Assembly: GCF_000327385.1 (NCBI RefSeq)
Contig: NW_008709540.1
Location: forward strand, 1 to 39,237
DNA from: Lottia gigantea
Lineage: Eukaryota
DNA: 39,237 nucleotides
Direction: 5' to 3'
Position 1 is the stretch's first letter, and each line of letters starts with the position of its first letter. The notes under the pieces were generated by a model. The model was not told the DNA's origin. It saw only the letters and a list, made by a program, of their open reading frames with translations, and searched no databases. The position numbers and the translations under genes were made by a program. This document shows positions 2,035 through 21,469 of the stretch, one piece after another.

Positions 2035-3370
2035 TGTGATATGAATAATAGTTTGATTGGTATATATCTGTTTTCTTCTTGTGATATGAATAATAATTTT
2101 CATAGGTGTATATCTGTTTTCTTCTTGTGATATGAATAAAAGTTTTGATAGGTATGTGTCAGTTTTCTCCTTGTGATATGAATAAAAGTTTTGATAGGTA
2201 TGTGTCAGTTTTCTCCTTGTGATATGAATAAAAGTTTTGATAGGTGTATATCTGTTTTCTCCTTGTGATATGAATAAAAGTTTTGATAGGTATATATCTG
2301 TTTTCTCCTTGTGATACGAATAAAAGTTTTGATAGGTATATATCTGCTTTCTCCTTGTGATATGAATAATAGTTTTGATAGGTATATACCTGTTTTCTCC
2401 TTGTGATATTAATAAAAGTTTTGATAGGTATATATCTGTTTTCTCCTTGTGATATGAATAAAAGTTTTGATAGGTATATAACTGTTTTCTCCTTGTGATA
2501 TGAATAAAAGTTTTGATAGGTATATATCAGTTTTCTCCTTGTGATATGAATAATAGTTTTGATTGGTGTATATCTGTTTTATCCTTGTGATATGAATACT
2601 AGTTTTGATAGGTATATGTCAGTTTTCTCCTTGTGATATGAATAATAGTTTTGATAGGTATATGTCGGTTTTCTCCTTGTGATATGAATAACAGTTTTGA
2701 TAGGTATATAACTGTTTTCTCCTTGTGATATGAATAATAGTTTTGATAGGTATATGTCGGTTTTCTCCTTGTGATATGAATAATAGTTTTGATAGGTATA
2801 TGTCAGTTTTCTCCTTGTGAATATGAATAAAAGTTTTGATAGGTATATATCAGTTTTCTCCTTGTGATATGAATAATAGTTTTGATAGGTATATGTCAGT
2901 TTTCTCCTTGTGAATATGAATAAAAGTTTTGATAGGTATATAACTGTTTTCTCCTTGTGATATGAATAATAGTTTTGATAGGTATATGTCAGTTTTCTCC
3001 TTGTGAATATGAATAAAAGTTTTGATAGGTATATGTCAGTTTTCTCCTTGTGATATGAATAATAGTTTTGATAGGTATATGTCAGTTTTCTCCTTGTGAT
3101 ATGAATAACAGTTTTGATAGGTATATATCTGTTTTCTCCTTGTGATATGAATAATAATTTTGATAGGTATATAACTGTTTTCACCTTGTGATATGAATAA
3201 TAATTTTGATAGGTATATAACTGTTTTCTCCTTGTGATATGAATAATAGTTTTGATAGGTATATGTCAGTTTTCTCCTTGTGAATATGAATAAAGTTTTG
3301 ATAGTGTATATCTGTTTTCTCCTTGTGATATGAATAACAGTTTTGATAGGTATATAACTGTTTTCACCTG
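2035..3370. repeat. Minisatellite, about 59-60 bp unit x about 22 (ttgtgatatgaataatagttttgataggtatatgtcagttttctcc)
   Basis: Tandem period about 60 bp visible by eye. ORF 2579-3184(-) is a repeat artifact (protein is itself perfectly periodic). Confidence 0.9.
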
Positions 3371-3537
3371 GTCAATTGAAGAGTAGTTGTGACAGGCATT
3401 TGTTTCTTATTGAGATTTTGAATGATTTGTCAAAATGGCTTCATAAGACACCAATTGCCGACATTTTCAAAATAATCATTGCCAAATTTTTAGACCTTTC
3501 GCCTCTTTTTTTGTAGAACAACACCCGACAAGCAGTC

Positions 3538-4439
3538 ATGATGGCGATAACTTTAATAACTATATTATGTCTGATTGCCGGCACAGATGCACAAATTATG
3601 CCGGGAATGGGAATGCCCGGAATGCAAATGGGAATGCCTGGAATGCAAATGGGAATGCCCGGAATGCCGCCAAATAGAATGACTGGAATGCCCAATGGAA
3701 TGCCCAATGGAATGCCAAATGGAATGCCAAATGGAATGCCAAATGGAATGTCAAATGGAATGCCCAATGGAATGCCGAATGCAATAGAATACCGGGAATG
3801 TCAAATGGAATGCCAAATGGGATGCCAAATGGGATGCCAAATGGAATGCCAGGTATGCCAAATGGAATGCCTGGTATGCCAAATGGAATGACAGGTATGC
3901 CAAATGGAATGCCAGGTATGTCAATTGGAATGCCAGGAATGCCAAACGGAATGCCAGGTATGCCAAATGGAATGCCAGGAATGCAACTTGGTATGCAAAA
4001 TAGAATGTTCGGATCATCCGGGGGAATGCCTGGAGGAATTCCAAGATTTCCAGGTGGATTTCCCGGATTATCAGGGGGTATGCCAGGATTATCAGGGGGT
4101 ATGCCAGGATTATCAGGGGGTATGCCTTTTGGATTTCCTGGATTGAGGAGTGGAATTCCCGGTGGTTTCCCCGGAATGAACATGATAAATAACCCTATGT
4201 TACAGGCCAGATTACAATTGATGAATAATGGTCAACCAAATCAGCAGTCATCCTCTGATAATGCCAACAATAGCGGGTCTTCAAACAATGATTCCAATAA
4301 TAGGAACGCTAATATCAATCCGTTTGCTAACATTGGTATGAGTATGTTCAACAGGCAATCTCCTTTCGCTATGCTGGGAGGAAGATCGCCATTTGGAGGA
4401 TCACCATTTGGAGGACGATTCCCATTCACAATGGGCTAA
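3538..4439 (+). CDS. Secreted Met/Pro/Gly-rich low-complexity repeat protein (signal peptide [19 protein letters not shown]; MPGM/MPNG repeats; non-repetitive N/S/Q-rich C-terminal tail); reading frame interrupted near 3781-3797
   Basis: ORF 3538-3891 starts with a hydrophobic signal peptide followed by MPGM/MPNGM repeats. The same repeats continue in ORF 3798-4439 in another frame, which ends in a 90-aa non-repetitive tail. The aberrant 16-17 nt segment gcaatagaataccggg at about 3781-3797 breaks the repeat and the frame. It is a paralog of the 16637 gene by signal peptide and composition. Confidence 0.6.
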
Positions 4440-6539
4440 ATCAAACACATCCACCAACTAGACAGAAACCTGGGTCCTTTGTTCCTTTTTTACGAAATTT
4501 AACTCACAATGATTGTACTGTTTCGATCATCTGATTTGATTGTGGAATAAGTTCATTTAATCAGCTTAATCTTAAATCTGGAATTCATATAATGTTATTT
4601 TTGTGACAACTGTCCCTAAATATATATAATAGAAGGACTTTTAAATGGACTTTTACTTTTTTCGGAATAATCTCAGAAATATGTTATGCAAACTTTAGAC
4701 TTTTGTTACTATCAAATTATACACTTCATGTTCGTGTAGGAAAAAATTTGTTGTATTTTAAACACGGTTTAATGTAATATGTAAATTATTGATTAAAATG
4801 TGTTCTATCATATGGTTTGTTTTATATATTTAGTAGGGATTTCTGAAAAGTGCTTAGCTTAAGTGAGATATCTCAATGGAATTGAAACAAACTTGTGCCG
4901 CCAACAAGTTCAATCATTTAATCAATCATATATACAGGGTTCAATTTAAGCGGTATCGCAGTGCAGTTTGCGAGTCAAAATGACCCATTTTCCGATACCC
5001 CTATGATTAGCCAAAAGTAAAATTCCTCACAACAATCTGTCAATCAGACATCGAAGATGTGAATTACCACTGGGAAATTGTTCAAACCTGAAAGGTGATT
5101 ATGTAGAGATATAAATTATAACTATCGACTATCGGTACGGGTCATTTATTGTTGACCATTAATTTCAAAGTAACTATTGGTTCTAGAAAACTTTATTTAG
5201 CTGCCTGAAATACAACATAACGCAACCGTCACCAACGACGAAATAGTAAGGGGCGCCCAATTGTCAGCAAAACTCCGCAATTGGCACAGCAGCGCCCTCT
5301 CTTATTTCGATTTTAGATATTTAAAATGTTATAAAAACAGTGTTGAATCATATTTTTCTTTCCCGTCATTAAAGGTGAACATTTCGCAGTTGTGATAACA
5401 TCCATTTTTCATTCCTGTACTTTTATTCTTGAAAATTGTATTGGCGGTCTGTATTTAACTAAATACCGTATTTGGGAACTACATTTTGTAAGTTATGATT
5501 TTGTTTTTGTTGTAGTATATCCAGGAATATTAACAGCCTTGTTATTATTACCAATGTGAATGCCATTGTAAACTTGCACATTTTGAATTTCGTTTCTAGA
5601 AGGTTACCAGAAGCTGTATGTTAGAAAGTCGTAGATTTTCGTCATTTTAATATTCACATCCGATAAATTTAGAGAAATCTTCAGAATTTGATTACAACAG
5701 AACATCTATGGCCAAAGCTTGAAGCTGTCTGTGTGAATAATGATTTTGATTTTGGTACGCTGTGCAGCAGAAATTTTGAATTTTGAAGAAGCATTTCTAA
5801 AGGTAAAGTAAAAGTTTGGCCAACATCTTGATACAGAATGATGAAGTTGAAAGTATTGAAATCGATGACGACCCTGAACACACAGACATGCCAACTAGTA
5901 ACCAGGAATCTCTTCGACAGCTGAACGCACCTTTTCTGTCCTGAAACGAGTCAAATGTCGAATACTTCCTATTGGCTAGATTTTTATTGCGTTTATGGAG
6001 ATGTTTTGTCGCTTGTCTAAGGTCATTCTCGATTCCTTGTCGATCTCAATGGCGAATACTGGCGAGAATGGCACCAACCGTACGATATCTGACGCTCGCT
6101 TCACGCTTATACCAGAGCTATGTGGCTCTGGCTTATACCACGCCTGGGGAATGGCGACCTTAACACGCTCTTAGCTAATTTTTAAGGTCGCATAACGAAG
6201 TCAGAACTGTCAAAAACACAGAATTCAGCGATATTCCGGTTCTATGTTCTTATTAAGAATTAATTTATCTTCGTTACAATAAAAGTATAAGTTAGAAGTT
6301 GTTTTTCGAGTTTTGCATTATTGACAACATGTGTTTAAATGTTTTATTAACACCGCACTGTACAAAACAATTTCTGATCCTCCAGCCAATTTGGAGCCAC
6401 CACGCCACTGGTGGGCTTTGAGGTGTCATGGGTTCGACATCAGGACAGAAAACATGCATGTAATCAAACAGAGAGGTCTCTAATATACATTGGACTACAT
6501 TACTGTAGAATTTGTTTGTGGTCTGAGTCTATATTCAAC

Positions 6540-7060
6540 GAATCAACAGATACTGGAAAGTGAAAGTAGATTTCTAAGAAAAGATGTAAGTTATATTTTT
6601 AACTGTCACTGTACAAGGAGAAAAGGAAACGTTGAAATAGAATAAGCTGCTGCTATCACCGAAGATATATATTCGGATTCTGCGAGGTTAAAATATAGGA
6701 CAACCTAAAGACTGGTTAATCTAGGTGTAAGATATGAATAGACTGCAATCAAAGTGTAGAGATATTATTCAGTGAATGAGGAAGTAAAGCTGTAATATAT
6801 TTCTTGGTCGAACTACAATTAGGATACTAAGACATTCTGTGTTAAATTAATATTATAGACTATATTATAGTGACTAATTTATTACTAGTGAATTAAACTA
6901 ACTATAGCGACAAAAAAAAATAGAAACAGAAAGTAAAAGTAGGATTCTAAGACGTCATACTTGATAATTAAGTCAACTTAAGGTTTTAAAGATTAAAATG
7001 AAACTAGGATTTTAATACATCGAGTGACGAAACTGAAAGTAGACTTGAGTTTGACCAAAA
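6540..7060 (+). promoter_or_regulatory. Cluster of GAAAGTGAAAGT-type (ISRE/IRF-E-like) motif repeats upstream of the TRIM-like pseudogene
   Basis: ggaaagtgaaagtagatttctaag (about 6553), gaaacagaaagtaaaagtaggattctaagac (about 6921), gaaactaggatttt / gaaactgaaagtagacttgag (about 7001-7052). A related gaaactgaaagtag lies upstream of the intact minus-strand copy (about 12462-12485, reverse complement). Confidence 0.4.
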
Positions 7061-7112
7061 TTAACCTGCTTGGTGTGATAAAGACTATTCCTGATTTTAA
7101 ACTAAAATTATC

Positions 7113-8750
7113 ATGGAAAAACTAGATAAAACATGTAGTATTTGTTTACATGATCGTAAACAACCTAAAATATTGACATGTTTACATGTTTATTGTTGTC
7201 AATGTTTACTTGATTACGTCAACAAATCTCTCAAAGACGGACAATTTCCGTGTCCTCTATCTCGTGAACAAATTCAACTTCCTTCTGGTGGAGTCAGGAA
7301 TTTCAGGATTTTCCTGAAGGTGATGGAAGTGATGACGAAATAGATACAGAAACTGATGACGTGTCAAATATGAATGACGTAGCATCTCCAGCAGCAGAAT
7401 TAGGTCTCTGTGGCGTATGTGAAAGTCAAACTAGTGTAAAATATCGATGTAAAGATTGTAAACAGAGTATTTGTGAGAACTGTAAGATAGGTCATCGCAA
7501 AATTCCTGTCACTAAAAATCACGTGATTATTGATTTTGTTGATGGAATTGAAGAAGAAATTTGGGAACCCAGTAACCATGGCAACCAGAGTCCTGTAGAC
7601 CCGTGTCCTGTACATACATATAAAAACTGATTGAAATTTATTGTGTGGAATGTAAAACCTGTGTTTGTTTACAATGTTATGTTGATGAGAGTAATAGAGG
7701 TGTTCACAATGGACACCGGATATTGAATTTAGACAATAAAGATACCCAAACCAAGTTACGAGATAATTTAAAATGTTTAAATACTAATTTACAGGCTCAG
7801 ATCGACCGTTTACAGACATTTTCAGATCACCTGACATCTAAACTAAACCGAGTGAGATTGATATTTGTAGTGAGGAAGCGTGTAACAAGGTGGATCAACA
7901 AGTCCAGCTCATTTCTAAATTGGTCCAATCTCGAGCTGAACAAATTAAAACTCAAATCAACAATACTCGACACGAGGAAAGAAACAAGTTGGAAATTTTG
8001 AGAAAAGAAATGGAAATATCCATCACTGAACTAAAATCAGCCATTAAAGATTCTCTGATTACCCTAGAAGGAGAGTCGGTTGTTAAAATTGTAGAAAGAA
8101 ATGAGAGAAATAGAAATGATGAAATGAAAGTTAAACAGAAAGATTTGGTCGTTCCTGATTTACAATTTCCGAGTTTTCTTATTGGAAGTGACGTCAGAGA
8201 TGAGGTCGGGAGATTGGTTGGCGAATGCAAAAATTTCAAACAACCAAATTTTACACTGGAATATAACATAAATACAATTTCTTGTAGCTTTGTAAAAAGG
8301 TATTTTAATTTTGGTGAATTTAAATGGTATGTGAAGGTACGCTGTAATAATGATGTTGAAACTCTGGTGTGGTGTCTATCTTTGTTTATCTGAGACAAGT
8401 GTCAATGAGACAAGAGACAATGAGACAATGAGACAAGCGACAATGAGACAAGCGACAATGAGACAAGCGACAATGAGACAAGTGTCAATGAGACAAGAGA
8501 CAATGAGACAAGCGACAATGAGACAAGAGACAAGAAGAAAGTAAAAGTTATATCTGGTTTTACTATTCTAAATAAAGTCGCAGGAGAATCTCGATCTCGA
8601 CTTCCATCCTCTGATGAGTTTGAAGCAGGTGGTCCTGGGTATGGCTATAACAATTTTATTAATCTCAAAGAATTAAAAAATCCCGAAAATGGTTTTGTGG
8701 ACAAAGATGGTCATTTTTCTATCAGAATTTTAATACAACAACCCTAAGGA
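7113..8750 (+). pseudogene. Pseudogene copy of the RING/B-box/coiled-coil/MATH (TRIM37-like) gene: at least 4 frameshifts, RING Cys to Ser (PLSRE vs PLCRV), minisatellite inserted in the MATH region
   Basis: ORF fragments 7113-7343, 7361-7630, 7645-8001 and 7890-8393, plus a MATH tail through 8750 (…GYGYNNFINLKELKNPENGFVDKDGHFSIRILIQQP*). They align collinearly with the 509-aa intact ORF at 10826-12355(-) but in shifting frames. The upstream 30 bp (tattcctgattttaaactaaaatt) is also shared. Confidence 0.8.
8391..8540. repeat. 15-bp minisatellite (caatgagacaagcga) x about 10 inserted within the pseudogene MATH-domain region
   Basis: Direct reading of tandem gacaatgagacaagc units. The intact paralog has unique coding sequence (ADCKDDGRLSMYMFLIKSKTEKEM) at this position. 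Confidence 0.85.
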
Positions 8751-9404
8751 CTTACTTTAATAAATATGCCAATTTGATATTAATAAGAATTTGGTATAAA
8801 TTTAATAGTAGAATCTATTTTTACTTTTCAACATGCGCGACTTTCTACATGATTGTTGAAACAATGACGTCAATACATAACATTGTCATTGATTAGAATT
8901 TCTCTGCCTAATGTTTTAGTGATCAGGCAATGGTGTTTATTATGATATAAAAGTCACACACGAATTTGAATTAGCACAAAGGAAAAAATGATAGCTAATG
9001 TGAATATTTGTTATTGTTAGACATTGTTGTCGTGTCCTAAACCAAGTTCTGATATCCCATCCGAATATCACGTCCATTTTAAGATAGTTGTGATAGTATA
9101 GCTTCAGAATGACCTTTAACACCAATATATATTTAGATATTTGTAATTGTAACGTTAATTTTGATTGGTTGTAGATATTTTTTGTTATTTTATTAATTAA
9201 TTCTTACCAGATTTTAATTGTGTTTTAACCAGTAACAAAGAATGTCGAAATGTATTAAGTTAATATCTCATTCTAAAACAGAATTTGTTGGAAAGGATTA
9301 AATGTGATAGAAATAATTTACAGATTTCGAGAATTTACTTTTTGGTAAAATAACTTATTTTATGTCGACCTACTTAGGTTAGTGGAGGAATATTAATAGG
9401 AGCT

Positions 9405-9745
9405 AACTGGTTGTTAAAGAGATACTATCTCTTAGAATGAATATAAAATTCAACTTCTCAAATCTGGTCAATAAGAGTATATTTTCATCTTTAAACCTAC
9501 CTAGTGTCATAACTAATCAACAGAATACCTGTATAATCTAATAAATTCATAAAACGAAGAAATTGGCCTTAAAACTACGGTATTATTGAAAAACGACTAT
9601 TACGTTGTTTTATGGATTTATCTGATTCTGTTGTATATGTATGACACCAGGTAAGTCCACTGATGAATATATACTCTAATTGAATAAGTTTGAGAAGTAC
9701 ATTCTACTTTAATCATGCCCGAATCCTCAATCCGAATGACAAATA
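9405..9745 (+). mobile_element. MITE-like dispersed repeat, family 2, degenerate copy
   Basis: About 75% identity by eye to 28592-28960 (cttagaatgaatataaaattc…gtgtcataa…ttcataaaac…tatgacaccaggta…ctgatgaatatat). Confidence 0.5.
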
Positions 9746-10430
9746 ATAATGAGCCAAATTTTAATCCAGCAACTGATTGTCATTGAACTTAACACTTTAT
9801 ATCTTCAGTTTCCCTAATCTTGTCCTAGGTTTAATCTAGGGTGGCGTCGAGAAGATATCTGCTTATTTTCAAATATGTTATGTGTCTGTGATGTAGGTCT
9901 CAAATGCTGGCAAAATCGACTAGACGTTGGGAAAAACTGTAGGCCGTTTACTAGATGTTAGAGCTCATTTTCAGTTGTGCATAGTAGGCCTACTCAATGT
10001 ATAATTCCCCTGCAATTCAACAAAAAAGTAACATGACGTCACTTCCAGGTCATTTTTACGATTGAATAGCAGTTCTTATATGACGTCATGACTACCTAAA
10101 TATGTTTAGTACGTCAAGGAAGTGACACGGTACGTATTTTTTAACAATTACTGGCTAAATCGACGTTCAATTTTAATTCTGAAGGACTTATTTTGAGCTC
10201 CGTCAACAAGAGAATATTAAAACGACTTTATCCTTTTCATACTTGATAAAGACAAGAGTATTATTTCTGAAACGTCGTAACGTAATTATTTCACTGAAGT
10301 TATCCAGAATATATATCTATTATATATAAAATAATATTACAAAATGATATGAAATACAATTTTTATTCTATATAATGATCGAACAAATTAAACAATATAA
10401 ACATACGGTAGGGTCATTGGGATATAAATG

Positions 10431-10810
10431 AGGTGGAGAGGAGAGAGGGTTGAGAGGAGAGAGTGAGGGTGGAGAGGAGAAGGAAAGAAACAAGAGGAAG
10501 TGAGGGGGAGGGGAGATAAGAAGAGGGATAGGAACAATGAAGGGGGGAGAGGAGAGAGAGGGGCGTGAAAGGGGGGGAGGGGAAGTGGAAGGAGAGGAAG
10601 AAGGGGAAGGGGGGGGAGAGGAAGAGGGGGAAGGAGAAGAGGGGAAGGGAAAGGAGAGGAAGAAGGGGGGGGGGAGAAGAGAGAGAAAAGGAAGAGAGGG
10701 TGGGGAGAAGGGGTGTAGGAGAAAGAGAAAGGGGGGAAGGAGATGGGAGAAGGGTAGAAGAGAGATTGGTGAAGAAAGATAAGAGAGAGGAAAAAGGGGG
10801 GCAGGGTGGG
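10431..10810. repeat. About 380-bp polypurine (GA/GGA) tract, polypyrimidine on the minus strand; abuts the stop codon of the intact TRIM-like gene
   Basis: Almost pure G/A composition (ggagaggagag…gggggagaggaagagggggaagg…). Overlapping ORFs 10368-10866(-) and 10537-10843(+) are composition artifacts. Confidence 0.9.
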
Positions 10811-10825
10811 TCACTCAGGCTTCCC

Positions 10826-12355
10826 TTACACTTGTTGAATTGATAGTCTAATAGAAAAATTCCCATCTTTGTCTACGAATCCATCGTCAGGATTTTTCAA
10901 TTCTTTGATATTAATTAAGTTGCTACGGCCGCATCCATGACCTTTTCTGGTGGAAAATTCTTCAGTATTAAAGTTTTTTGAACGAGATTTACTTTCGACT
11001 TTATTGAGAATTGTAAAACTGTATTTAATTTTTACTTTCATCTCTTTTTCTGTCTTCGATTTGATCAAAAACATATACATACTAAGACGGCCATCATCTT
11101 TACAGTCTGCAGACAAACACCAAACCAAATCCACAAAATCAAACAATTCAATTTTACTATCTAAAGATCCTCGGGAAATAGTTTTTGTATTAAATTTTAG
11201 TGTAAAGTTTTGTAGTTTTAAATTTTTACATTCGCCAACCAATCTCCCGACCTCATCTCTGACGTCACTTCCAGGAAGAAAACTCGGAAATTGTAAATCA
11301 GGAACGACCAAATCTTTCTGTTTAACTTTCATTTCATCATTTCTATTTCTCTCATTTCTTTCTACAATTTTAACAACCGACTCTCCTTCTAGGGTAATCA
11401 GAGAATCTTTAATGGCTGATTTTAGTTCAGTGATGGACATTTCCATTTCTTTTCTCAAAATTTCCAACTTGTTTCTTTCCTCGTGTCGAGTATTGTTGAT
11501 TTGAGTTTTAATTTGTTCAGCTCGAGATTGGACCAATTTAGAAATGAGCTGGACTTGTTGATCCACCTTGTTACACGCCTCCTCACTACAAATATCAATC
11601 TCACTCAGTTTAGATGTCAGGTGATCTGAAAATTTCTGTAAACGGTCGATCTGAGCCTGTAAATTAGTATTTAAACATTTTAAATTTTCTCGTAACTTGG
11701 TTTGGGTATCTTTATTGTCTAAATTCAATATCCGGTGTCCATTGTGAACACCTCTATTACTCTCATCAACATAACATTGTAAACAAACACAGGTTTTACA
11801 TCCCACACAATAAATTTCAATCAGTTTAGATGTATGTACAGGACACGGGTCTACAGGACTCTGGTTACCATGGTTACTGTGTTCCGATATTTCTTCTTCT
11901 TCAATTCCATCAACAAAATCAATGATCACGTGATTTTTAGTGACAGGAATTTTGCTGTGAATTTTTTTACACGAGTCACAAATATTCTGTTTACAATCTT
12001 TACATCGATAATTTACACTAGTTTGACTTTCACACACGTCACAGAGACCTAATTCTGCTGCTGGAGATGCTACGTCATTCATATTTGATAGGTCATCAGT
12101 TTCTGTAATAGCGTCCACTACGTCATCAACCCCACTGACGTCATCACCTTCAGATAAATTCTTAAATTCCTCGACTCCACCTGAAGGAAGTTGAATTTGT
12201 ACACGACATAAAGGACACGGAAATTGTCCGTCTTTGAGAGATTTGTTGACGTAATCAAGTAAACATTGACAACAATAAACATGTAAACATGTCAATATTT
12301 TAGGTTGTTTACGATCATGTAAACAAATACTACACGTTTTATCTAGTTTTTCCAT
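10826..12355 (-). CDS. Intronless E3 ubiquitin ligase-like protein: RING (C3HC4) - B-box1 - B-box2 - coiled coil - MATH/TRAF domain (TRIM37-like / TRAF-like), 509 aa
   Basis: Uninterrupted 509-aa ORF. RING: CSICLHDRKQPKILTCLHVYCCQCLLDYVNKSLKDGQFPCPLC. B-box-like: CDVCESQTSVNYRCKDCKQNICDSCKKIH and CPVHTSKLIEIYCVGCKTCVCLQCYVDESNRGVHNGH. Heptad-rich middle region. C-terminal MATH-like region (…SIRLSIQQV). Start ATG in aaaattgccATGG context. Confidence 0.85.
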   Translation of the reverse strand: MEKLDKTCSICLHDRKQPKILTCLHVYCCQCLLDYVNKSLKDGQFPCPLCRVQIQLPSGGVEEFKNLSEGDDVSGVDDVVDAITETDDLSNMNDVASPAAELGLCDVCESQTSVNYRCKDCKQNICDSCKKIHSKIPVTKNHVIIDFVDGIEEEEISEHSNHGNQSPVDPCPVHTSKLIEIYCVGCKTCVCLQCYVDESNRGVHNGHRILNLDNKDTQTKLRENLKCLNTNLQAQIDRLQKFSDHLTSKLSEIDICSEEACNKVDQQVQLISKLVQSRAEQIKTQINNTRHEERNKLEILRKEMEMSITELKSAIKDSLITLEGESVVKIVERNERNRNDEMKVKQKDLVVPDLQFPSFLPGSDVRDEVGRLVGECKNLKLQNFTLKFNTKTISRGSLDSKIELFDFVDLVWCLSADCKDDGRLSMYMFLIKSKTEKEMKVKIKYSFTILNKVESKSRSKNFNTEEFSTRKGHGCGRSNLINIKELKNPDDGFVDKDGNFSIRLSIQQV

Positions 12356-14614
12356 GGCAATTTTAGTTTAAAATCAGGAATATTTAGTCTTTTTCACACT
12401 TAGAAGTATCTTAGTTGTGTACAGGTTAATTTTTCTCCAATTTCAACTTCTATAATCCTATTACTACTTTCAGTTTCTCTTTTATCCATGTGTTTATAAT
12501 GGGGAATAACTCTATTTATCATCCTAATAGTTTTCAGACCACAAATTAAGAGTACATTAAATTCACAATAAAATGAAGTTTTTCGTCCTATTTTCTGCAC
12601 CCTTTGGGCTAATGAAAACGGATACCTCCATACAGTGGGCAGTGAGGGTAATCTTGCTAGGACAGTGACATTATCGAGGGATCTAGTCGCTTTTTCTCAG
12701 TCCCTCTGACCTGCATCACTGACAAGGAGGAAATAGGGTAGAAAATTAGGAAGGTATATCTTGACCTATGTCGGGATTGAACTACTAAATTCACCATATA
12801 GGCCAACTAGCCCTATACTGTCCGCTTACTACACTTTACCTCCCATACGCCTACTTCGGTCATATGATATTAGTTCTATTTTGATAGAACGCATGTCCAA
12901 ACCTAGATTATTTTTCAATCCGAAATGTCGTCTGCTTGTGAGACAGTCAAATAGAGCTGTGGAATTTAATCTGTGAAATAAATTTTGACTTGGCCTGATT
13001 TTGATGAGGGTAATTTAGATATATACCAGTAAAATATACAAGTTCTTGTCGTTTCTTATAGGTAAAGAATTTAGAATTTTACTCGGTTGAAATGCAAAGT
13101 GAATGTGAAATCGTTTAGGATATTTCCAAATCATGAATCCATTATTTGTTATGTTATGAAATTGAAATATATCCCGTTACTCTGAGTTTAATATTAAATA
13201 TAAAGTTAAATAATGAACAATATAAAAAGTTAAGGTTAAGTAATTGATAAAAATTAAATATTAATTGAAGTAATAAATAGAACAATAGAGATGAATTCAA
13301 TATAAAACACATAACAATATGGTTAAATAAATAAAGATACAAAAAAGGTTAAATAAAAAATAATTCAAACCTCTGCAGAGGTGTAATTCTATTTTTTCGT
13401 ATTCTCTTCCATATTATCAACAAAAAAAAACTCCCCTGTCTTCTTCTACAGAAATTCTGAAATTCACAATAGAACTTCCACTGAAATTGTATAGCAACAA
13501 CTTTGCTCTAGGGTATATTATTGGAATTAGTGACGCCTTGGCATCCCTCCCCGTTTCTCTATTAGGGCATATAGACTTTAAAAAAAACATTTCTGACGAC
13601 CCCCGTCCCACTCAAAAAAAAAACCATTCCGACACACACTGAAATTCACAACTCTTTACCCATCCTTGCTTCTGTATTAGGGCATCATTTTTTTTGCCCC
13701 CACCCCAATCCCTTTGATTACTAGTATGTTCGATGGCTCATGCCTCACGCCATTTTATGAGATAGTCGAGGAAAACAGGTGTTTATCTAAGAACGTATTC
13801 AGATGTATTTTTCTTTCTTCTAAAATATTTCATGCTCTTAACCTCTTTTTTCTAAATCGTCCAAAGAATTTCAATCTTTGACGTTGTGCCTCCAAAATTG
13901 ACACACAAATTATAAAAAGAGTAAAAAAAGATATCGAAGAAAATCGACTTCCTGGTGAATTGTGTAATGTTGAATAATTTTGATATTGATTAAAATAAAA
14001 CCAATTAGCTGATTAGACTAAGATAATTAATTTAAATCTTTAAACCCATACACTTTCTGTAATTACCAATCAGACCATCTAGATATTCCGAAACACTCTG
14101 CTTTCAACTAAAAACACATTAAATACCGTTTAACTTGAAAAACACTGTGTTGGTGGTTTCTGTTATAGAACGACTGTTAATTCGTCAGTGGTTCATTTTT
14201 ACAATTTTCAATAAGTTTATATAAGAACCTCTTCTTCTTCCTCTTCCCTTTCTTCTTCTTCTACCATTTATTTCACGCATTAAATGCAAAAAGTTTGTGG
14301 TTTTTGCAATGTAACTGTTTGAAACATGAAATTAATTTGGCATAGTTCGAAGTAAGGTTGTTATATATGTATGAATAGATGAAATCGAGAAATTCTCGGC
14401 AAATTTTCTACTCCAGATTAAGATTTAGATATTAATCTCATTCAACGTTATGCAGTGTACAATGATAGCAATTTCGCAAGAAAATGGCGAGTATCTTTTA
14501 TGTTCACGGGAAGCATGTGGTATTTTGCTTTCGTATCCGAATATCTAGATGTCGAGACATGCATCAACGACAGAGGAAACCCGAAACTACTATTCCATGA
14601 GGAACTCCTGGTGT

Positions 14615-15042: not shown

Positions 15043-15645
15043 ATTTTAACAGTGGTATTTCTATATTGCTCTGCTATTGATGTATTGTGCACTATTTTAA
15101 CAGTGGTATTTCTATATCGCTATACAATTAATGTATTGAGCACTATTTTAACAGTGGTATTTCTATATTGCTCTGCAATTGATGTATTGTGCACTATTTT
15201 AACAGTAATATTTCTATATCACTCTACAATTGATGTATTGAGCACTATTTTAACAGTGGTATTTCTTTATGACTCTACAATTGATGTATTGAGAACTATT
15301 TTAACAGTGGTATTTCTATATTGCTTTACAATTGATGTATTGAGCACTATTTTAACAGTGGTCTTTCTATATTGCTCTACAATTGATGTATTGAGCACTA
15401 TTTTAACAGTGGTATTTCTTTATGACTCTACAATTGATGTATTGAGAACTATTTTAACAGTGGTATTTCTATATTGCTTTACAATTGATGTATTGAGCAC
15501 TATTTTAACAGTGGTCTTTCTATATTGCTCTACAATTGATGTATTGAGCACTATTTTAACAGTGGTATTTCTATATCACTCTACAATTGATGTATTGAGC
15601 ACTATTTTAACAGTTAAAATATTGTATTTTCGTATTATATATATA
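15043..15645. repeat. Minisatellite, 60-bp unit x 10 (ttttaacagtggtatttctatattgctctacaattgatgtattgagcactat)
   Basis: Exact 60-bp period (unit starts 15043, 15103, …). ORF 15052-15732 is periodic and artifactual. Confidence 0.9.
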
Positions 15646-16636: not shown

Positions 16637-17302
16637 ATGTTGTCATTTGTTGCTCAAATCGTATGCCTTCTCGTCGGTTCCATGACCGTCCACGCCCAGT
16701 TTATGGGCATGGGCGGAATGGGCATGGGAGGCATGGGAATGGGAGGCATGGGAATGGGCGGCATGGGAATGCCAGGAATGGGTATGGGCGGTATGGGAAT
16801 GCCAGGAATGGGCATGGGCATGGACATGGACTTTGGAAATGACTTTGGAATGATGAACCCATTTGGTGGAATGGGTGGATTTGGTGGAATGGGTGGATTT
16901 GGTGGAATGAGCGGATTTGGTGGAATGGGCGGATTTGGCGGCATGGGAGGATTTGGCGGCATGGGAGGATTTGGCGGCATGGGAGGATTTGGCGGTATGG
17001 GAGGATTTGGCGGTATGGGTGGCATGGGCGGTATGGGCGGCATGGGCGGTTTTGGAGGCATGGGTGGCATGGGAATGGGTGGTATGCAAGGACTCCCTGG
17101 ATTTGGAATGGGTGCTGCTGGAATCGGAATGCCTTCTATGCCAGGGATGCCACCTATGCCAGGAATGTCAGCTATGTCAGGGATGTCAGCTATGCCAGGA
17201 ATGTCAGCTATGCCAGGGATGTCAGCTATGCCAGGAATGCCATCTATGCCAGGGATGTCAGCTATGCAAGGAATGATGGGAAATAGTGCTCCAGCAGTGT
17301 AA
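16637..17302 (+). CDS. Secreted Met/Gly-rich low-complexity repeat protein, 221 aa (signal peptide MLSFVAQIVCLLVGSMTVHAQ; GMGGMGM, GFGGMGG and MPGMSAM repeat blocks)
   Basis: Complete ORF with a hydrophobic signal peptide and a single frame through three distinct repeat types. TATA box upstream; AATAAA at 17357-17362, 55 nt after the stop. Paralogous to the 3538 gene ([14 protein letters not shown] vs VHAQFMGMGGMGM). Antisense ORFs 16643-17089 and 16654-17070 are artifacts. Confidence 0.75.
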   Translation: MLSFVAQIVCLLVGSMTVHAQFMGMGGMGMGGMGMGGMGMGGMGMPGMGMGGMGMPGMGMGMDMDFGNDFGMMNPFGGMGGFGGMGGFGGMSGFGGMGGFGGMGGFGGMGGFGGMGGFGGMGGFGGMGGMGGMGGMGGFGGMGGMGMGGMQGLPGFGMGAAGIGMPSMPGMPPMPGMSAMSGMSAMPGMSAMPGMSAMPGMPSMPGMSAMQGMMGNSAPAV

Positions 17303-17929: not shown

Positions 17930-18755
17930 TAGTGATAGCTTCACTAGACAGGGTTACATGAGCACGTTTAGTAGCTTCTCTAGACAAGGTTATATGGGCA
18001 CGTATAGTAGCTTCACTAGAGAAGGTTACATGAGCACGTTTAGTAGCTTCACTAGACAAGGTTACATGAGCATGTTTAGTAGCTTCACTAGACAAGGTTA
18101 CATGAGCATGTTTAGTAGCTTCACTAGACAAGGTTACATGAGCATGTTTAGTAGCTTCACTAGACATGGTTACATGAGCATGTTTAGTAGCTTCACTAGA
18201 CAAGGTTACATGAGCACGTATAGTAGCTTCACTAGACAGGGTTACATGAGCATGTTTAGTAGCTTCACTAGACAAGGTTACATGAGCATGTTTAGTAGCT
18301 TCACTAGACAAGGTTACATGAGCATGTTTAGTAGCTTCACTAGACAAGGTTACATTGAGCATGTTTAGTAGCTTCACTAGACAGGGTTACATGAGCATGT
18401 TTAGTAGCTTCACTAGACAAGGTTACATGAGCATGTTTAGTAGCTTCACTAGACAAGGTTACATGAGCATGTATAGTAGCTTCACTAGACAAGGTTACAT
18501 GAGCATGTTTAGTAGCTTCACTAGACAAGGTTACATGAGCATGTTTAGTAGCTTCACTAGACAGGGTTACATGAGCATGTTTAATAGCTTCACTATACAA
18601 GGTTACATGAGCATGTTTAGTAGCTTCACTAGACAAGGTTATATGAGCATGTTTAGTAGCTTCACTAGACAGGGTTACATGAGCATGTTTAGTAGCTTCT
18701 CTTGACAAGGTTACATGAGCATGTTTAGTAGCTTCACTAGAATCTCACGTGAAAA
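17930..18755. repeat. 36-bp minisatellite x about 23 (ttcactagacaaggttacatgagcatgtttagtagc)
   Basis: Exact 36-bp period. All six frames are open, so ORFs 17721-18368(+), 18355-18705(+), 17892-18377(-) and 18340-18708(-) are not evidence of coding. There is a 1-bp indel at about 18350. Confidence 0.85.
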
Positions 18756-19833: not shown

Positions 19834-20355
19834 TTACACCACTGCAGCGTCCCCTCGTAACACTTTATCTGTCAAATCCACAAAACCAGGTTTAGGCATT
19901 ACCAAATCAGGAAACGCATCATTTGCGTTTGGCACTGGTATATTGGGGAAAGTGTTCGGTGGTCCAGGGTTAGGTGAACCAATCGGAGCATTTAATATTC
20001 CTATTCGATTGCCATTAGGTGGAGACATTACGTTTTGATTGTTCTCGAAAGTGTTGGGAAGCAAATCGCTGGTGGTCCCTCGATTGTCCCACGGATCTGA
20101 CCACCTTTGATCAAATCCAGAATTAAATTGATTCATCATGTTGTATCCAAATCTATTTCTCGGTCGAGCACCGAATCCCATACCAAATAATCCATAACCG
20201 TAAGGGGCATATAACGGTCTTACTACTACGGGCATGACAGGAATCACATGCGTTACGGGTATGACGGGTGACAATACCACACCGTGCCAAACTCCACCGT
20301 TGACGGACGCGATGAGACACACAACACACGAGACAGTCAATAAATTTCCAATCAT
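19834..20355 (-). CDS. Small secreted Pro/Asn/Gly-rich protein, about 173 aa (signal peptide MIGNLLTVSCVVCLIASVNG); coding exon preceded by a 5'UTR intron acceptor
   Basis: ORF on the minus strand. The 225-aa ORF listed extends further upstream, but the hydrophobic signal peptide starts at Met53 (ATG at 20353-20355). Immediately upstream, on the gene's own (minus) strand, gtttttttttgcag|gtcgaagtacaagaagaatATG is a polypyrimidine tract plus cag acceptor. Confidence 0.5.
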   Translation of the reverse strand: MIGNLLTVSCVVCLIASVNGGVWHGVVLSPVIPVTHVIPVMPVVVRPLYAPYGYGLFGMGFGARPRNRFGYNMMNQFNSGFDQRWSDPWDNRGTTSDLLPNTFENNQNVMSPPNGNRIGILNAPIGSPNPGPPNTFPNIPVPNANDAFPDLVMPKPGFVDLTDKVLRGDAAVV

Positions 20356-21469
20356 ATTCTTCTTGTACTTCGACCTGCAAAAAAAAACAAACAAGAATAA
20401 TAACAAAATGTGGGAAGAGAACGGAATGAAAGGAACCTTTTCAAGAATAGAATACAAGCTGTTTTTGAAAAGATGAATGCAAGAAAGATGATTCAAAAAT
20501 GATTTTGACAAAATGAATCCTAGATAGTAAATTTATAGAAGTCAACGCCAACAACAAATGTTTTAAAACTAACACCCAATTTTACGCCAGCTGTATTTCA
20601 ATGACTTGGTTCATTTTGTGTCAGCCAGAACTAACTTTGAAAGATGCCGGACAAATCAGAAATTTCGCCCATAGATAAACTAATTATCAGCCAATTTGGA
20701 CAATTATTAGACAAATTCTAAATTTTTACCTGAGATGAAAGCTTTGTTTCTGCTACTGCACTACACACAGTGTGAGTGAACTTCATTCACCTTGCGGCCA
20801 GTCATAAACACTCTGATCATTAACCCGTGAACTTTCTTAAATACTTCCGCTCTTTAACCCTCTTCCTCATTCTGTCATTAGAAAACTTGTACGGCCTCGG
20901 GTAACTGGGCTGACTAGACGATATCAGTTTCACTGGGGTTGAATCATACTAACGCACCCTTATCATATTAAAGGTGGTGTGGGTGGATTTGGGGGCTGCT
21001 CTGGGGTCAAAATAAAAATAATTGTGTGAGGATTATGTCCTCCGGTTCTGTACCCTTATTGATCCAATGAAAGAATTAGGGATTTATGTCCTAATATTCT
21101 ACACCATATGAGTGAAGGCGTAAATTCGCTAATGTACTGTTCTACATATTTTTAGTATCGAAAGAAATTGAGCTTTGCGTCATATTGTGCCTCTATTTAA
21201 TCATTTTCAATATGAACCAAGAGTGGGATTTACTTATATTATGGATTATAAAATTCTATATATTTATACTAAACGAACTAATAAATTTGAAGAACATTTT
21301 CGGTGATGTCAAAATTATGGAATCATTTTTTAACAAAGTAATCGAAACCTTATCCTGTTATTTGTAAAAAAGAATTATCAATGATATTGACGTAACCAAA
21401 ATATTACTTCTGAACCCTATTGGGTAGATAAAATCAAATGGAACCAGTGCTATGCCCTTCTGTTATTTT

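What the first reader, a model, noticed from the sequence alone, without database searches (positions are those of the whole stretch)
7113..12355. Tail-to-tail inverted duplication of an intronless TRIM37-like (RING/B-box/CC/MATH) gene, one copy intact and one decayed
The intact 509-aa gene (10826-12355, minus) and the plus-strand copy (7113-8750) are highly similar at the DNA level, including about 30-70 bp of 5' flank. The plus copy carries at least four frameshifts, a RING Cys to Ser substitution and a 150-bp minisatellite in the MATH domain. The two 3' ends face each other across a 2-kb spacer containing a 380-bp polypurine tract and TGACGTCA palindromes. An intronless architecture plus recent duplication and decay is typical of lineage-specifically expanding innate-immune TRIM/TRAF-like families in invertebrates.
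Basis: partly seen in the sequence, partly recalled or inferred. Interest (0 to 1): 0.6.

Follow-up and report, generated by a model that had tools for sequence, protein, structure and literature searches.

The report
Limpet TRIM-MATH gene plus dead inverted twin
An owl-limpet (Lottia gigantea) ubiquitin-ligase gene sits tail-to-tail with a recently dead sister copy whose front half has been overwritten by gene conversion; this is a tidy but ordinary case of gene-family turnover, and the gene is not TRIM37.

Summary
The window is Lottia gigantea. ORF 10826-12355(-) is identical to annotated LOTGIDRAFT_164160 (509 aa): RING, B-box1, B-box2, coiled coil and MATH in one coding exon. A colinear inverted copy lies at 7113-8747(+), across a 2,078-bp spacer. 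The copy has three clear frameshifts (-1, +2, +5), two inferred ones, three in-frame TGA codons, loss of zinc ligand Cys50, and a 15-bp x 8.3 minisatellite.

Two parts of the interpretation need correcting.

1. The gene is not TRIM37-like beyond its architecture. Lottia has its own TRIM37 orthologue (71% identical to human). This gene has an extra B-box1, its RING and B-box resemble TRIM2/3/56, and its MATH domain is of the USP7/SPOP type. All 30 relatives whose source I looked up are from limpets (Patella, Lottia). The four whose loci I fetched are intronless.

2. The duplication is not simply recent. Synonymous divergence is 0-0.15 in the 5' 1.1 kb but 0.46-1.07 in the MATH region, where dN/dS is 0.16-0.46. 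The break is sharp, at 8227/8228. This points to an old duplicate homogenised by gene conversion that died recently.

An immune role was not tested. ISRE-like motifs upstream of both copies are only a hint. Interest is low to moderate.

The parts
10826..12355 (-). Intact gene 'M': LOTGIDRAFT_164160 (XP_009058917.1, UniProt V4BMP8), 509 aa, single coding exon. Architecture is RING, B-box1, B-box2, coiled coil, MATH.
   Evidence: ORF listed. It is 509/509 identical to P0156. Pfam domains. Full-length AlphaFold model.
12206..12334 (-). RING finger of M (residues 8-50), with all eight zinc ligands present.
   Evidence: Pfam zf-C3HC4, 31.7 bits. The best matches among solved structures are the TRIM2, TRIM3 and TRIM56 RINGs. 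Ligand columns are conserved in the family alignment A1.
11927..12046 (-). B-box1 of M (residues 104-143), with the pattern C-x2-C-x9-C-x2-C-x4-C-x2-C-x3-H-x8-H.
   Evidence: Second zf-B_box stretch and ANCHR-like_BBOX hit at 104-143. The ligand pattern was read from the sequence. It aligns with Patella homologues.
11720..11854 (-). B-box2 of M (residues 168-212).
   Evidence: Pfam zf-B_box at 168-212. C171, H174, C183, C186, C191, C194, H204 and H207 are invariant in A1.
11306..11719 (-). Coiled-coil region of M (residues about 213-350).
   Evidence: The AlphaFold model shows a continuous helix at 215-323 and a second helix at 327-345.
10829..11248 (-). MATH domain of M (residues about 370-509), of the USP7/SPOP type.
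   Evidence: Pfam MATH_2, 40.5 bits against a cut-off of 32. Domain model has pLDDT 82. Foldseek top hits are the SPOP and USP7 MATH domains. The family profile matches the USP7 MATH domain at E 1e-17.
7113..8747 (+). Pseudogene 'P', the inverted sister copy. Only its first 76 codons (7113-7343) are annotated, as LOTGIDRAFT_123530.
   Evidence: Alignments. tblastn needs three frames to cover it. P0014 is identical to ORF 7113-7343. Five minimal repairs give a 540-aa protein with the same architecture.
7260..7262 (+). Cys50 to Ser (TGT to TCT) in P. This is the last zinc ligand of the RING and an invariant column in the family.
7295..7296 (+). Frameshift 1 in P: a 1-bp deletion (GGAGTC-AGG against GGAGTCGAGG). 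It is followed by in-frame deletions of about 15 nt in the acidic linker and a TAG at 7341-7343.
7622..7623 (+). Frameshift 2 in P: a 2-bp insertion in an A-run.
7845..7849 (+). Frameshift 3 in P: a 5-bp slippage-type insertion (AAACT|AAACC). It lies inside the 99%-identical block.
8368..8371 (+). Inferred frameshift 4 in P: a 4-bp TGTG insertion. Removing it restores '...DVETLGVYLCLSE...', which matches the family motif TLGVYLxL.
   Evidence: Family alignments. This is inferred from protein consensus, not from the alignment with M.
8391..8423 (+). Three in-frame TGA codons (8391, 8406, 8421) in the frame shared by the upstream and downstream MATH segments of P.
8409..8533 (+). A 15-bp x 8.3 minisatellite (consensus GACAATGAGACAAGC). 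It encodes (N-E-T-S/R-D/V)n as an insert of about 40 aa in a variable MATH loop. It contains a truncated 8-bp unit at 8422-8429, which is frameshift 5.
   Evidence: Tandem Repeats Finder result, repeat family D2.
7086..8227 (+). Gene-conversion tract or tracts in P, paired with 11229-12382 in M. Identity is 96.4% overall and about 99% in the sub-block 7624-8227. dS is 0-0.15.
   Evidence: Segment dS values. Change point after 8227 with LLR 41.7, longest identical run 162 bp (permutation p 4e-4), and Fisher test on synonymous differences p 7e-13.
8228..8749 (+). Old, unconverted part of P (MATH core), paired with 10824-11228 in M. It is 77% identical where alignable. dS is 0.46-1.07 and dN/dS is 0.16-0.46.
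   Evidence: With the minisatellite removed, the repaired P MATH domain scores 84 bits on a family HMM built without M, against 73 bits for M.
7029..7112 (+). Shared 5' flank of P. It pairs with 12356-12477 in M. The last 27 bp are near-identical, and upstream there are gapped islands, including the 14/14 island GAAACTGAAAGTAG (an ISRE/IRF-like motif).
8748..10825 (.). The 2,078-bp spacer between the two facing 3' ends. It has no ORF of note, no tRNA and no Rfam match. It holds three TGACGTCA sites (8865, 10034, 10081).
10425..10812 (+). Polypurine tract (pyrimidine-rich on M's strand) starting 14 bp after M's stop codon. It is 388 bp, 92.5% purine, with a perfect run at 10587-10700. It is probably within M's 3' UTR, because the next AATAAA on the minus strand is at 10367-10362.
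   Evidence: The 3' UTR placement is an inference.

Best explanation
The locus holds two sister paralogues of a limpet-restricted (Patellogastropoda) family of intronless TRIM-type E3 ubiquitin ligases, in Lottia gigantea.

**The intact gene, M (LOTGIDRAFT_164160).** It encodes RING, B-box1, B-box2, an antiparallel-type coiled coil and a C-terminal MATH domain of the USP7/SPOP kind. By analogy with characterised TRIMs, SPOP and USP7, the expected mechanism is:
- the coiled coil dimerises the protein;
- the RING recruits a ubiquitin-charged E2;
- the MATH beta-sandwich binds a short linear peptide motif in a substrate, which is then ubiquitinated.

This mechanism is inferred, not shown here.

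**The plus-strand copy, P.** It is a duplicated (non-processed) pseudogene with five frameshifts, three in-frame stops and a lost RING zinc ligand.

**History.**
- The duplication is old. The MATH halves differ at dS of about 0.5-1.0 but evolved under purifying selection, so P was once a working gene with its own MATH specificity.
- Afterwards, one or more gene-conversion events between the inverted copies homogenised the 5' 1.1 kb (RING to the end of the coiled coil). The youngest tract is 7624-8227.
- P then died recently. Frameshift 3 lies inside the youngest tract.
For: **Shown here.**
- *Identity and organism:*.
- *Domains and fold:*.
- *MATH type:* the family profile hits the USP7 MATH domain at E 1e-17 and SPOP at 2e-7. 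hhalign gives 98.7% probability against USP7.
- *Family range and gene structure:* all 30 MATH-bearing relatives looked up are Patella vulgata, P. caerulea or Lottia. Four Patella genes have a gene length of exactly 3 x (aa + 1), so they are single-exon.
- *Lesions in P:*.
- *Mosaic divergence*:
  - dS 0.085 in the RING
  - dS 0.155 in B-box1
  - dS 0-0.013 in B-box2 and the coiled coil
  - dS 0.46-1.07 in MATH, with dN/dS 0.16-0.46
- *Sharp boundary*: change point after 8227 (96.4% against 77.2%, LLR 41.7); synonymous differences 1 of 119 sites against 21 of 46 (Fisher p 7e-13); longest identical run 162 bp (permutation p 4e-4).
- *P was once functional:* the repaired P MATH domain scores 84 bits on a family HMM built without M. 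M itself scores 73 bits.
- *Sister relationship:* the best match to P's MATH among all fetched proteins is M's MATH.
- *Relaxed constraint after conversion:* 6 non-synonymous against 1 synonymous change in 7624-8225.
Against: - No expression data. P could still be transcribed, and M's activity as a ligase is inferred only from its domains.
- The dS estimates for MATH rest on 75 alignable codons.
- Frameshifts 4 and 5 are inferred from protein consensus, not from a nucleotide alignment.
- I could not scan the rest of the Lottia genome. A third paralogue as donor of either part of P is therefore not excluded.
- The direction and number of conversion events are not resolved, because there is no close outgroup.
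- There is only one assembly, so I could not rule out sequencing error at individual indels. The count and the types of indel make error unlikely.
Confidence: 0.8

Rival explanations
1. A single recent whole-gene inverted duplication, followed by very fast divergence of the MATH domain under positive selection.
For: The 5' 1.1 kb is 92-99% identical. Substrate-binding domains of immune TRIMs often evolve fast (established knowledge).
Against: Positive selection raises dN, not dS. Here synonymous divergence itself jumps from about 0.01 to 0.46-1.07 across a sharp boundary, and dN/dS in MATH is 0.16-0.46. Non-coding homology also stops exactly at the stop codon, and the 5' flank is gapped, as expected for an old duplicate.
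Confidence: 0.07
2. P is a second functional paralogue. On this view the frameshifts are assembly errors or are bypassed by splicing or recoding.
For: The frameshifts cancel in two sets: -1, +2 and +5 give +6, and +4 and +2 give +6. Start, MATH C-terminus and stop are therefore all in one frame. The repaired MATH domain is very family-like.
Against: Five separate indels of 1-5 bp are needed, and most are slippage-type insertions rather than typical read errors. There are also three in-frame TGA codons, loss of the invariant zinc ligand Cys50, and a 6:1 non-synonymous to synonymous ratio in the youngest tract. A candidate intron at 7320-7349 is 30 nt long and does not change the frame (read from the sequence). 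The genome project's own model stops at 76 aa.
Confidence: 0.04
3. P is a chimera. An M-derived 5' part was joined by ectopic recombination to the MATH exon of a third, unseen paralogue, rather than an old sister being converted in place.
For: The identity break at 8227/8228 is sharp. Lottia has at least two more family members on other scaffolds (P0060, P0042).
Against: P's MATH is far closer to M's MATH (101 bits) than to any other fetched family member (49 bits or less), including the two other Lottia paralogues. Stop-codon position and C-terminal length are shared with M. Gapped residual homology persists in the 5' flank beyond the high-identity block.
Confidence: 0.08
4. The intact gene is the Lottia orthologue, or a recent offshoot, of TRIM37.
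For: Both have a RING, a B-box, a coiled coil and a MATH domain (TRIM37 is R-B2-CC-MATH in PMC2533329).
Against: - Lottia has its own TRIM37, P0226, 71% identical to human over 98% of the first 426 residues.
- M aligns to it only at 24% over B-box2 and the coiled coil (E 8e-8).
- No TRIM37 RING appears among M's matches to solved structures, although entry 3LRQ is in the library.
- M has an extra B-box1.
- The family MATH profile scores 92 against USP7 and 44 against TRIM37.
Confidence: 0.01

Closest known systems
TRIM37 (class VIII TRIM; R-B2-CC-MATH)
   Same: Both are E3-ligase-type tripartite motifs followed by a MATH beta-sandwich. TRIM37 is the only human TRIM with that C-terminal domain (PMC2533329).
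   Different: - It is not an orthologue. Lottia has a separate, highly conserved TRIM37.
- The limpet protein has B-box1 as well as B-box2.
- It ends directly after the MATH domain, at residue 509.
- It is encoded by one exon.
- Its MATH domain is closer to USP7 than to TRIM37.
- The architecture therefore looks independently assembled.
TRIM2/TRIM3/TRIM71/TRIM56-like TRIMs of molluscs (RING, B-boxes and coiled coil followed by NHL or filamin)
   Same: - The best sequence matches to M's RING and B-box2 among solved structures are TRIM2, TRIM3 and TRIM56.
- NCBI names the Patella relatives TRIM2-, TRIM56-, TRIM71-, TRIM33- or TRIM45-like.
- Distant bivalve hits carry NHL or filamin domains behind the same N-terminal module.
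   Different: The C-terminal NHL or filamin module is replaced by a MATH domain.
MATH domains of USP7/HAUSP and SPOP (peptide-motif readers)
   Same: - Fold match: TM 0.65-0.77, with rmsd 2.6 A to USP7.
- Sequence-profile match at E 1e-17.
- The conserved C-terminal block ...GWxxFIxWxxLxDPxxGFID... is shared with USP7's ...[22 protein letters not shown]....
   Different: The domain is attached to a TRIM ligase module instead of a deubiquitinase (USP7) or a BTB-Cul3 adaptor (SPOP). In M the groove motif has diverged (GCGR instead of the family's GYGW). P keeps GYGY.
Gene-pseudogene pairs homogenised by gene conversion between inverted repeats (general phenomenon, for example palindrome arms)
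   Same: Inverted orientation, a short spacer, mosaic identity with sharp tract ends, and a pseudogene partly kept 'young' by conversion.
   Different: The tract covers only the N-terminal tripartite module and spares the substrate-binding domain. The direction of conversion is unknown.

Membership tests
TRIM / RBCC superfamily | N-terminal RING finger with a full set of zinc ligands | tested here: met
   Pfam zf-C3HC4 at 8-50, 31.7 bits against a cut-off of 21. Ligand columns are conserved in A1. In P, Cys50 is lost.
TRIM / RBCC superfamily | One or two B-box zinc fingers after the RING | tested here: met
   zf-B_box, two stretches, 39.5 bits against a cut-off of 24.1. The B1 and B2 ligand patterns were read from the sequence. 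B2 ligands are invariant in A1.
TRIM / RBCC superfamily | Long coiled coil directly after B-box2 | tested here: met
   The AlphaFold model shows a helix at 215-323 and a return helix at 327-345, with pLDDT about 80-87. Dimerisation itself was not tested.
TRIM / RBCC superfamily | E3 ubiquitin-ligase activity | not testable with these tools
   Needs an in vitro ubiquitination assay.
TRIM37 orthologue group | Closest relative of TRIM37 in its genome (orthology) | tested here: not met
   Lottia LOTGIDRAFT_128738 (P0226) is 71% identical to human TRIM37 (E 2e-207). M against P0226 gives 24% over 160 aa (E 8e-8).
TRIM37 orthologue group | R-B2-CC-MATH architecture with a single B-box | tested here: not met
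   M has B-box1 (104-143) as well as B-box2. TRIM37 is listed as R-B2-CC-MATH (PMC2533329).
TRIM37 orthologue group | TRIM37-type MATH domain | tested here: not met
   hhalign of the family MATH profile against human TRIM37 MATH scores 43.7 (92% probability). Against USP7 MATH it scores 91.7 (98.7% probability). BLASTP finds no MATH alignment.
MATH/TRAF-domain superfamily | Profile match above the curated threshold | tested here: met
   PF22486 MATH_2, 40.5 bits against a cut-off of 32.
MATH/TRAF-domain superfamily | Eight-stranded antiparallel beta-sandwich fold | tested here: met
   Domain model has pLDDT 82 and eight strands. Foldseek against the PDB gives SPOP and USP7 MATH domains at E 1e-7.
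Duplicated (non-processed) pseudogene | Homology to a functional paralogue together with disabling lesions | tested here: met
   Three unambiguous and two inferred frameshifts, three in-frame stops and Cys50 to Ser.
Duplicated (non-processed) pseudogene | Lack of a protein product or transcript | not testable with these tools
   No expression data are available here.
Processed (retro)pseudogene | Poly(A) tract at the 3' end and flanking target-site duplications | tested here: not met
   There is no A-run after P's stop or its AATAAA (8748-8790). No direct repeats flank P. Lack of introns is uninformative because the parent gene is also intronless.
Gene conversion between paralogues | Mosaic divergence with a sharp boundary, seen at synonymous sites | tested here: met
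   dS of 0-0.15 against 0.46-1.07. Change point with LLR 41.7, Fisher p 7e-13, run-length permutation p 4e-4.
Gene conversion between paralogues | Phylogenetic incongruence between tract and flank, judged against an outgroup | not testable with these tools
   The nearest available relatives (Patella) are only about 30% identical at protein level. No congeneric sequence was reachable.

The most novel reading that the evidence does not exclude
Limpets independently built a TRIM ligase whose substrate-binding end is a copy of the USP7-type MATH domain. Several herpesvirus proteins bind that domain in vertebrates (PDB entries with EBNA1 and vIRF4 peptides appear among the fold hits).

On this reading the family would work as an 'integrated decoy'. 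A pathogen protein evolved to dock on USP7 would instead be caught by the TRIM and ubiquitinated. Expression would be driven by the ISRE/IRF-like GAAACTGAAAGT elements conserved upstream of both copies. Birth, MATH divergence, conversion and death of paralogues would be the footprint of an arms race.

A second unexcluded twist concerns the arrangement of the pair. The convergent gene-pseudogene pair has a 1.1-kb stem at 96% identity and a 2-kb loop. Read-through transcription could yield hairpin RNA and endogenous siRNAs against M.
Probability: 0.06. Interest if true: 0.7.

Novelty: new member of a known kind. Interest (0 to 1): 0.27.

Why it matters
- **Annotation.** It prevents a misleading label. 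These limpet genes are not TRIM37 and not TRIM2, TRIM56 or TRIM71. LOTGIDRAFT_123530 is the stump of a pseudogene, not a 76-aa RING protein.
- **Method.** It is a clean small example of how gene conversion makes an old duplicate look recent. It also shows that conversion can be confined to the 'engine' (RING, B-boxes, coiled coil) while the substrate-binding domain keeps its own history. This matters when dating expansions of immune-type gene families from sequence identity.
- **Family.** RING-B1-B2-CC plus a USP7-like MATH domain, found here only in limpets, with many divergent intronless paralogues in Patella, was not described in any paper I could find in the searchable library. It could be a starting point for work on mollusc ubiquitin-based defence. 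Nothing here shows an immune role.

Tried and rejected
- **Exact-protein look-ups.** Look-ups of the 509-aa and 76-aa products in the contig index found nothing. The organism came from cluster look-ups instead. The Lottia paralogue P0060 was also not in that index, so I could not examine other Lottia loci.
- **Word-indexed protein search.** With the single protein and with the family profile it returned only distant bivalve TRIMs and missed the Patella family. The exhaustive HMMER scan was needed.
- **Splicing rescue of frameshift 1.** A donor at 7320 and an acceptor at 7349 give a 30-nt 'intron' that does not change the frame. Rejected.
- **Retrocopy origin of P.** There is no poly(A) tract and no target-site duplication. 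Rejected, with the caveat that both copies are intronless anyway.
- **RNA genes in the region.** Rfam and tRNA scans of 6000-13500 and of the window found nothing.
- **Common element around TGACGTCA.** No longer motif is shared around the ten sites.
- **Bacterial promoter/terminator scan upstream of M.** Uninformative for a eukaryote.
- **Extra copies near Patella relatives.** tblastn found no additional copy within 10 kb either side of the four Patella genes.
- **Literature.** Searches for TRIM-MATH families in molluscs or Lottia found no relevant paper.

Full report
**1. What is there**

The window comes from the owl limpet Lottia gigantea.
- The 509-aa ORF at 10826-12355(-) is 509/509 identical to LOTGIDRAFT_164160 (XP_009058917.1, UniProt V4BMP8).
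- The 76-aa ORF at 7113-7343(+) is identical to the neighbouring model LOTGIDRAFT_123530.
- Both lie on a 2.16-Mb scaffold.

The two regions form an inverted repeat.
- Arms of 75-479 nt are 92-99% complementary.
- A colinear alignment runs from 7086 (patchy from 7029) to 8749 against 12382 (12477) to 10824.
- tblastn finds no third copy in the window.
- The 3' ends face each other across 2,078 bp.

**2. The intact gene, M**

- Pfam finds a C3HC4 RING (8-50), two B-boxes (104-143 and 168-212) and MATH_2 (379-497; 40.5 bits against a cut-off of 32).
- The first B-box has the B-box1 ligand spacing and the second has the B-box2 spacing (read from the sequence).
- A full-length AlphaFold model built from ten family members gives these features:
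  - a folded RING
  - a disordered acidic linker (69-101)
  - both B-boxes
  - one 109-residue helix (215-323) with a return helix (327-345), the usual TRIM coiled-coil layout
  - a C-terminal beta domain
- Modelled alone with 23 family sequences, the C-terminal domain is an eight-stranded sandwich (pLDDT 82).
- Its best structural matches are the SPOP and USP7 MATH domains (E 1e-7, TM up to 0.77, rmsd 2.6 A).
- The coding sequence is a single uninterrupted exon.

**3. The plus copy, P, is a pseudogene**

Relative to M it has the following lesions:
- a 1-bp deletion after 7295
- in-frame deletions of about 15 nt in the acidic linker, and 3 nt at 7550
- +2 at 7622-7623
- +5 at 7845-7849

These three frameshifts sum to +6, so the frame of the start codon is regained at 7850.

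In that frame the sequence reads through the coiled coil into a MATH domain and then meets TGA at 8391, 8406 and 8421.

Comparison with the family consensus (TLGVYLxL) shows two further shifts:
- a 4-bp TGTG insertion at about 8368-8371
- a truncated 8-bp unit at 8422-8429 inside a 15-bp x 8.3 minisatellite (8409-8533)

With five minimal repairs, P reads as a 540-aa protein with the same architecture. It carries a (NETSD)n insert of about 40 aa in a MATH loop whose length varies among relatives.

P also has Cys50 to Ser (TGT to TCT, 7260-7262). This removes the last RING zinc ligand, an invariant column in the family.

The indels are mostly slippage-type multi-base insertions, not typical read errors. 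The genome project's own model stops at residue 76.

**4. The duplication is not simply recent**

Nei-Gojobori estimates by segment:

| Segment | dS | dN/dS |
|---|---|---|
| RING | 0.085 | 0.16 |
| B-box1 region | 0.155-0.161 | 0.33-0.47 |
| B-box2 and coiled coil (7624-8225, 198 codons) | 0-0.013 | not meaningful (6 non-synonymous, 1 synonymous change) |
| Alignable MATH segments (8229-8747, 75 codons) | 0.46-1.07 | 0.16-0.46 |

Further points:
- A two-rate change-point analysis puts the break after 8227 (96.4% against 77.2% identity, LLR 41.7).
- Synonymous differences are 1 per 119 sites against 21 per 46 sites (Fisher p 7e-13).
- The longest mismatch-free run, 162 bp, is exceeded in only about 4 of 10,000 permutations.
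- Positive selection cannot explain this, because the synonymous rate itself changes about 40-fold and dN/dS in MATH is below 1.
- The repaired P MATH domain, with the minisatellite removed, scores higher (84 bits) than M's (73 bits) on a family HMM built without M. P's MATH domain was therefore kept under constraint for most of its history.
- Among all fetched proteins, the closest match to P's MATH is M's MATH, so the two are sisters.

The simplest history has four steps:
1. An old inverted duplication took place.
2. Two functional paralogues followed, with diverging MATH specificities.
3. One or more gene-conversion events between the inverted copies covered 7086-8227, the youngest at 7624-8227.
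4. P then died recently. Frameshift 3 lies inside the youngest tract, and post-conversion changes are 6 non-synonymous to 1 synonymous.

Non-coding homology agrees with this. It stops exactly at the stop codon, and it is gapped upstream of position -27.

**5. What family it belongs to**

An exhaustive HMMER scan of 1.84 billion cluster representatives gives 4,503 hits at E below 1e-3, mostly generic TRIM N-termini. Only 11 are below 1e-30, and the best full-length relatives are 29-34% identical.

A MATH HMM built from the family finds the same C-terminal domain in about 28 of the top 150 representatives. All 30 sequences whose source I looked up are from limpets:
- They come from Patella vulgata, Patella caerulea or Lottia gigantea.
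- Lottia contributes two more paralogues, LOTGIDRAFT_151894 and LOTGIDRAFT_168901.
- The databases name them TRIM2-, 56-, 71-, 33-, 45- or 59-like, and never TRIM37.

Four Patella genes that I could fetch are single-exon (gene length is exactly 3 x (aa + 1)) and stand alone, with no second copy within 10 kb either side. One Patella member has three tandem MATH domains.

**6. Is it TRIM37-like?**

Only in outline.
- Residues 1-90 match PDB entry 3LRQ exactly.
- The whole stretch has a 100%-identity, 100%-coverage hit in the protein collection.

That search shows how conserved TRIM37 is: 71-79% identity between human and invertebrates. It includes a Lottia orthologue, LOTGIDRAFT_128738, at 71% identity (E 2e-207) on another scaffold.

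Against this:
- M aligns to human and Lottia TRIM37 only over B-box2 and the coiled coil, at 24-26% (E about 1e-7). The RING alignment is marginal and there is no MATH alignment.
- TRIM37 is R-B2-CC-MATH (PMC2533329), whereas M is R-B1-B2-CC-MATH.
- M's RING and B-box match the TRIM2, TRIM3 and TRIM56 chains best.
- The family MATH profile hits the USP7 MATH domain at E 1e-17 and SPOP at 2e-7, with no TRAF hit.
- hhalign scores are 91.7 against USP7 and 43.7 against TRIM37.

The architecture is therefore best read as an independent fusion of a TRIM2/56-like tripartite module with a USP7-type MATH domain.

**7. How it probably works (inferred)**

By analogy with solved TRIM, SPOP and USP7 systems:
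- M should dimerise through the coiled coil.
- The RING should recruit an E2 carrying ubiquitin.
- The MATH groove should bind short linear motifs in substrates.

The family keeps the USP7-like block GWxxFIxWxxLxDPxxGFID. M has diverged at the groove motif (GCGR), whereas P keeps GYGY. None of this was tested.

An immune role is untested. The only hint is that the ISRE/IRF-like pattern GAAANNGAAAST occurs five times in the window against 0.49 expected.
- Four of the five occurrences lie upstream of the two copies, in sense orientation.
- They include a 14/14 conserved island, GAAACTGAAAGTAG, in the otherwise gapped 5' flanks.

**8. The spacer**

- The polypurine tract (10425-10812; 92.5% purine; perfect run 10587-10700) starts 14 bp after M's stop. 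It probably lies in M's 3' UTR, because the next AATAAA on that strand is at 10367-10362.
- P has an AATAAA 12 bp after its stop (8759-8764).
- TGACGTCA is enriched across the whole window (10 against 0.47 expected). No longer context is shared. Three of the ten sites are in coding sequence, two of them the same duplicated codons.
- No RNA family or tRNA was found.

**9. Verdict**

The locus is an already-annotated hypothetical gene together with an unrecognised pseudogene. It is a neat example of conversion-masked age in a limpet-specific TRIM-MATH family. It is an ordinary kind of genome feature, and no described account of this family turned up in the searchable literature. Interest is low to moderate.

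Noticed in passing
window 6556-6567, 6923-6934, 7029-7040 (+); 12466-12477 (-); also 38575-38586 (-): The ISRE/IRF-like motif GAAANNGAAAST occurs 5 times against 0.49 expected. Four of the five lie upstream of the two TRIM-MATH copies in sense orientation. GAAACTGAAAGTAG is a 14/14 conserved island in the diverged 5' flanks.
   Followed up: partly
window 8189, 8865, 10034, 10081, 11260, 12136, 19445, 21512, 21912, 26069: The CRE-type palindrome TGACGTCA occurs 10 times against about 0.4-0.5 expected. It is the most over-represented multi-copy palindromic 8-mer in the window. No longer context is shared, and the enrichment is window-wide rather than specific to the spacer.
   Followed up: partly
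window 3538-4439 (+) and 16637-17302 (+): Two ORFs have signal-peptide-like starts followed by Met/Gly/Pro-rich low-complexity repeats (GMPNGMP..., GMGGFGGMGG...). They resemble secreted structural or shell-matrix-type proteins. There is no Pfam family apart from a sub-threshold Lamprin hit.
   Followed up: partly
window 2035-3403, 15043-15614, 17936-18741: Three long tandem satellites with periods of about 46, 51 and 36 bp at 90-96% identity. Each creates spurious long ORFs on both strands.
   Followed up: no
window 9453-9526 / 9625-9698: A 74-nt inverted repeat, 78% complementary, with a 98-nt loop, in the middle of the spacer. It may be a MITE-like remnant.
   Followed up: no
window 10587-10700: A perfect 114-bp purine run inside the 388-bp G/A-rich tract. 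Homopurine-homopyrimidine tracts of this kind can form triplex (H-DNA) structures. It abuts the point where homology between the two copies ends.
   Followed up: no
window 29388-30404 (-) and 19834-20511 (-): A 338-aa Pro-rich ORF and a 225-aa ORF with a hydrophobic N-terminal segment. Neither has a Pfam match.
   Followed up: partly
Patella vulgata proteins P0035 and P0011 (not in the window): [quoted passage not shown] Another relative of the B-box and coiled-coil part is annotated as 'kinesin light chain 1'. Both suggest active domain shuffling in this family.
   Followed up: no
window 7113-8747: The frameshifts in P cancel in two independent sets (-1, +2, +5, and +4, +2). The start codon, the MATH C-terminus and the stop codon therefore all share one frame. 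This is probably coincidence (about 1 in 9) and remains unexplained.
   Followed up: partly
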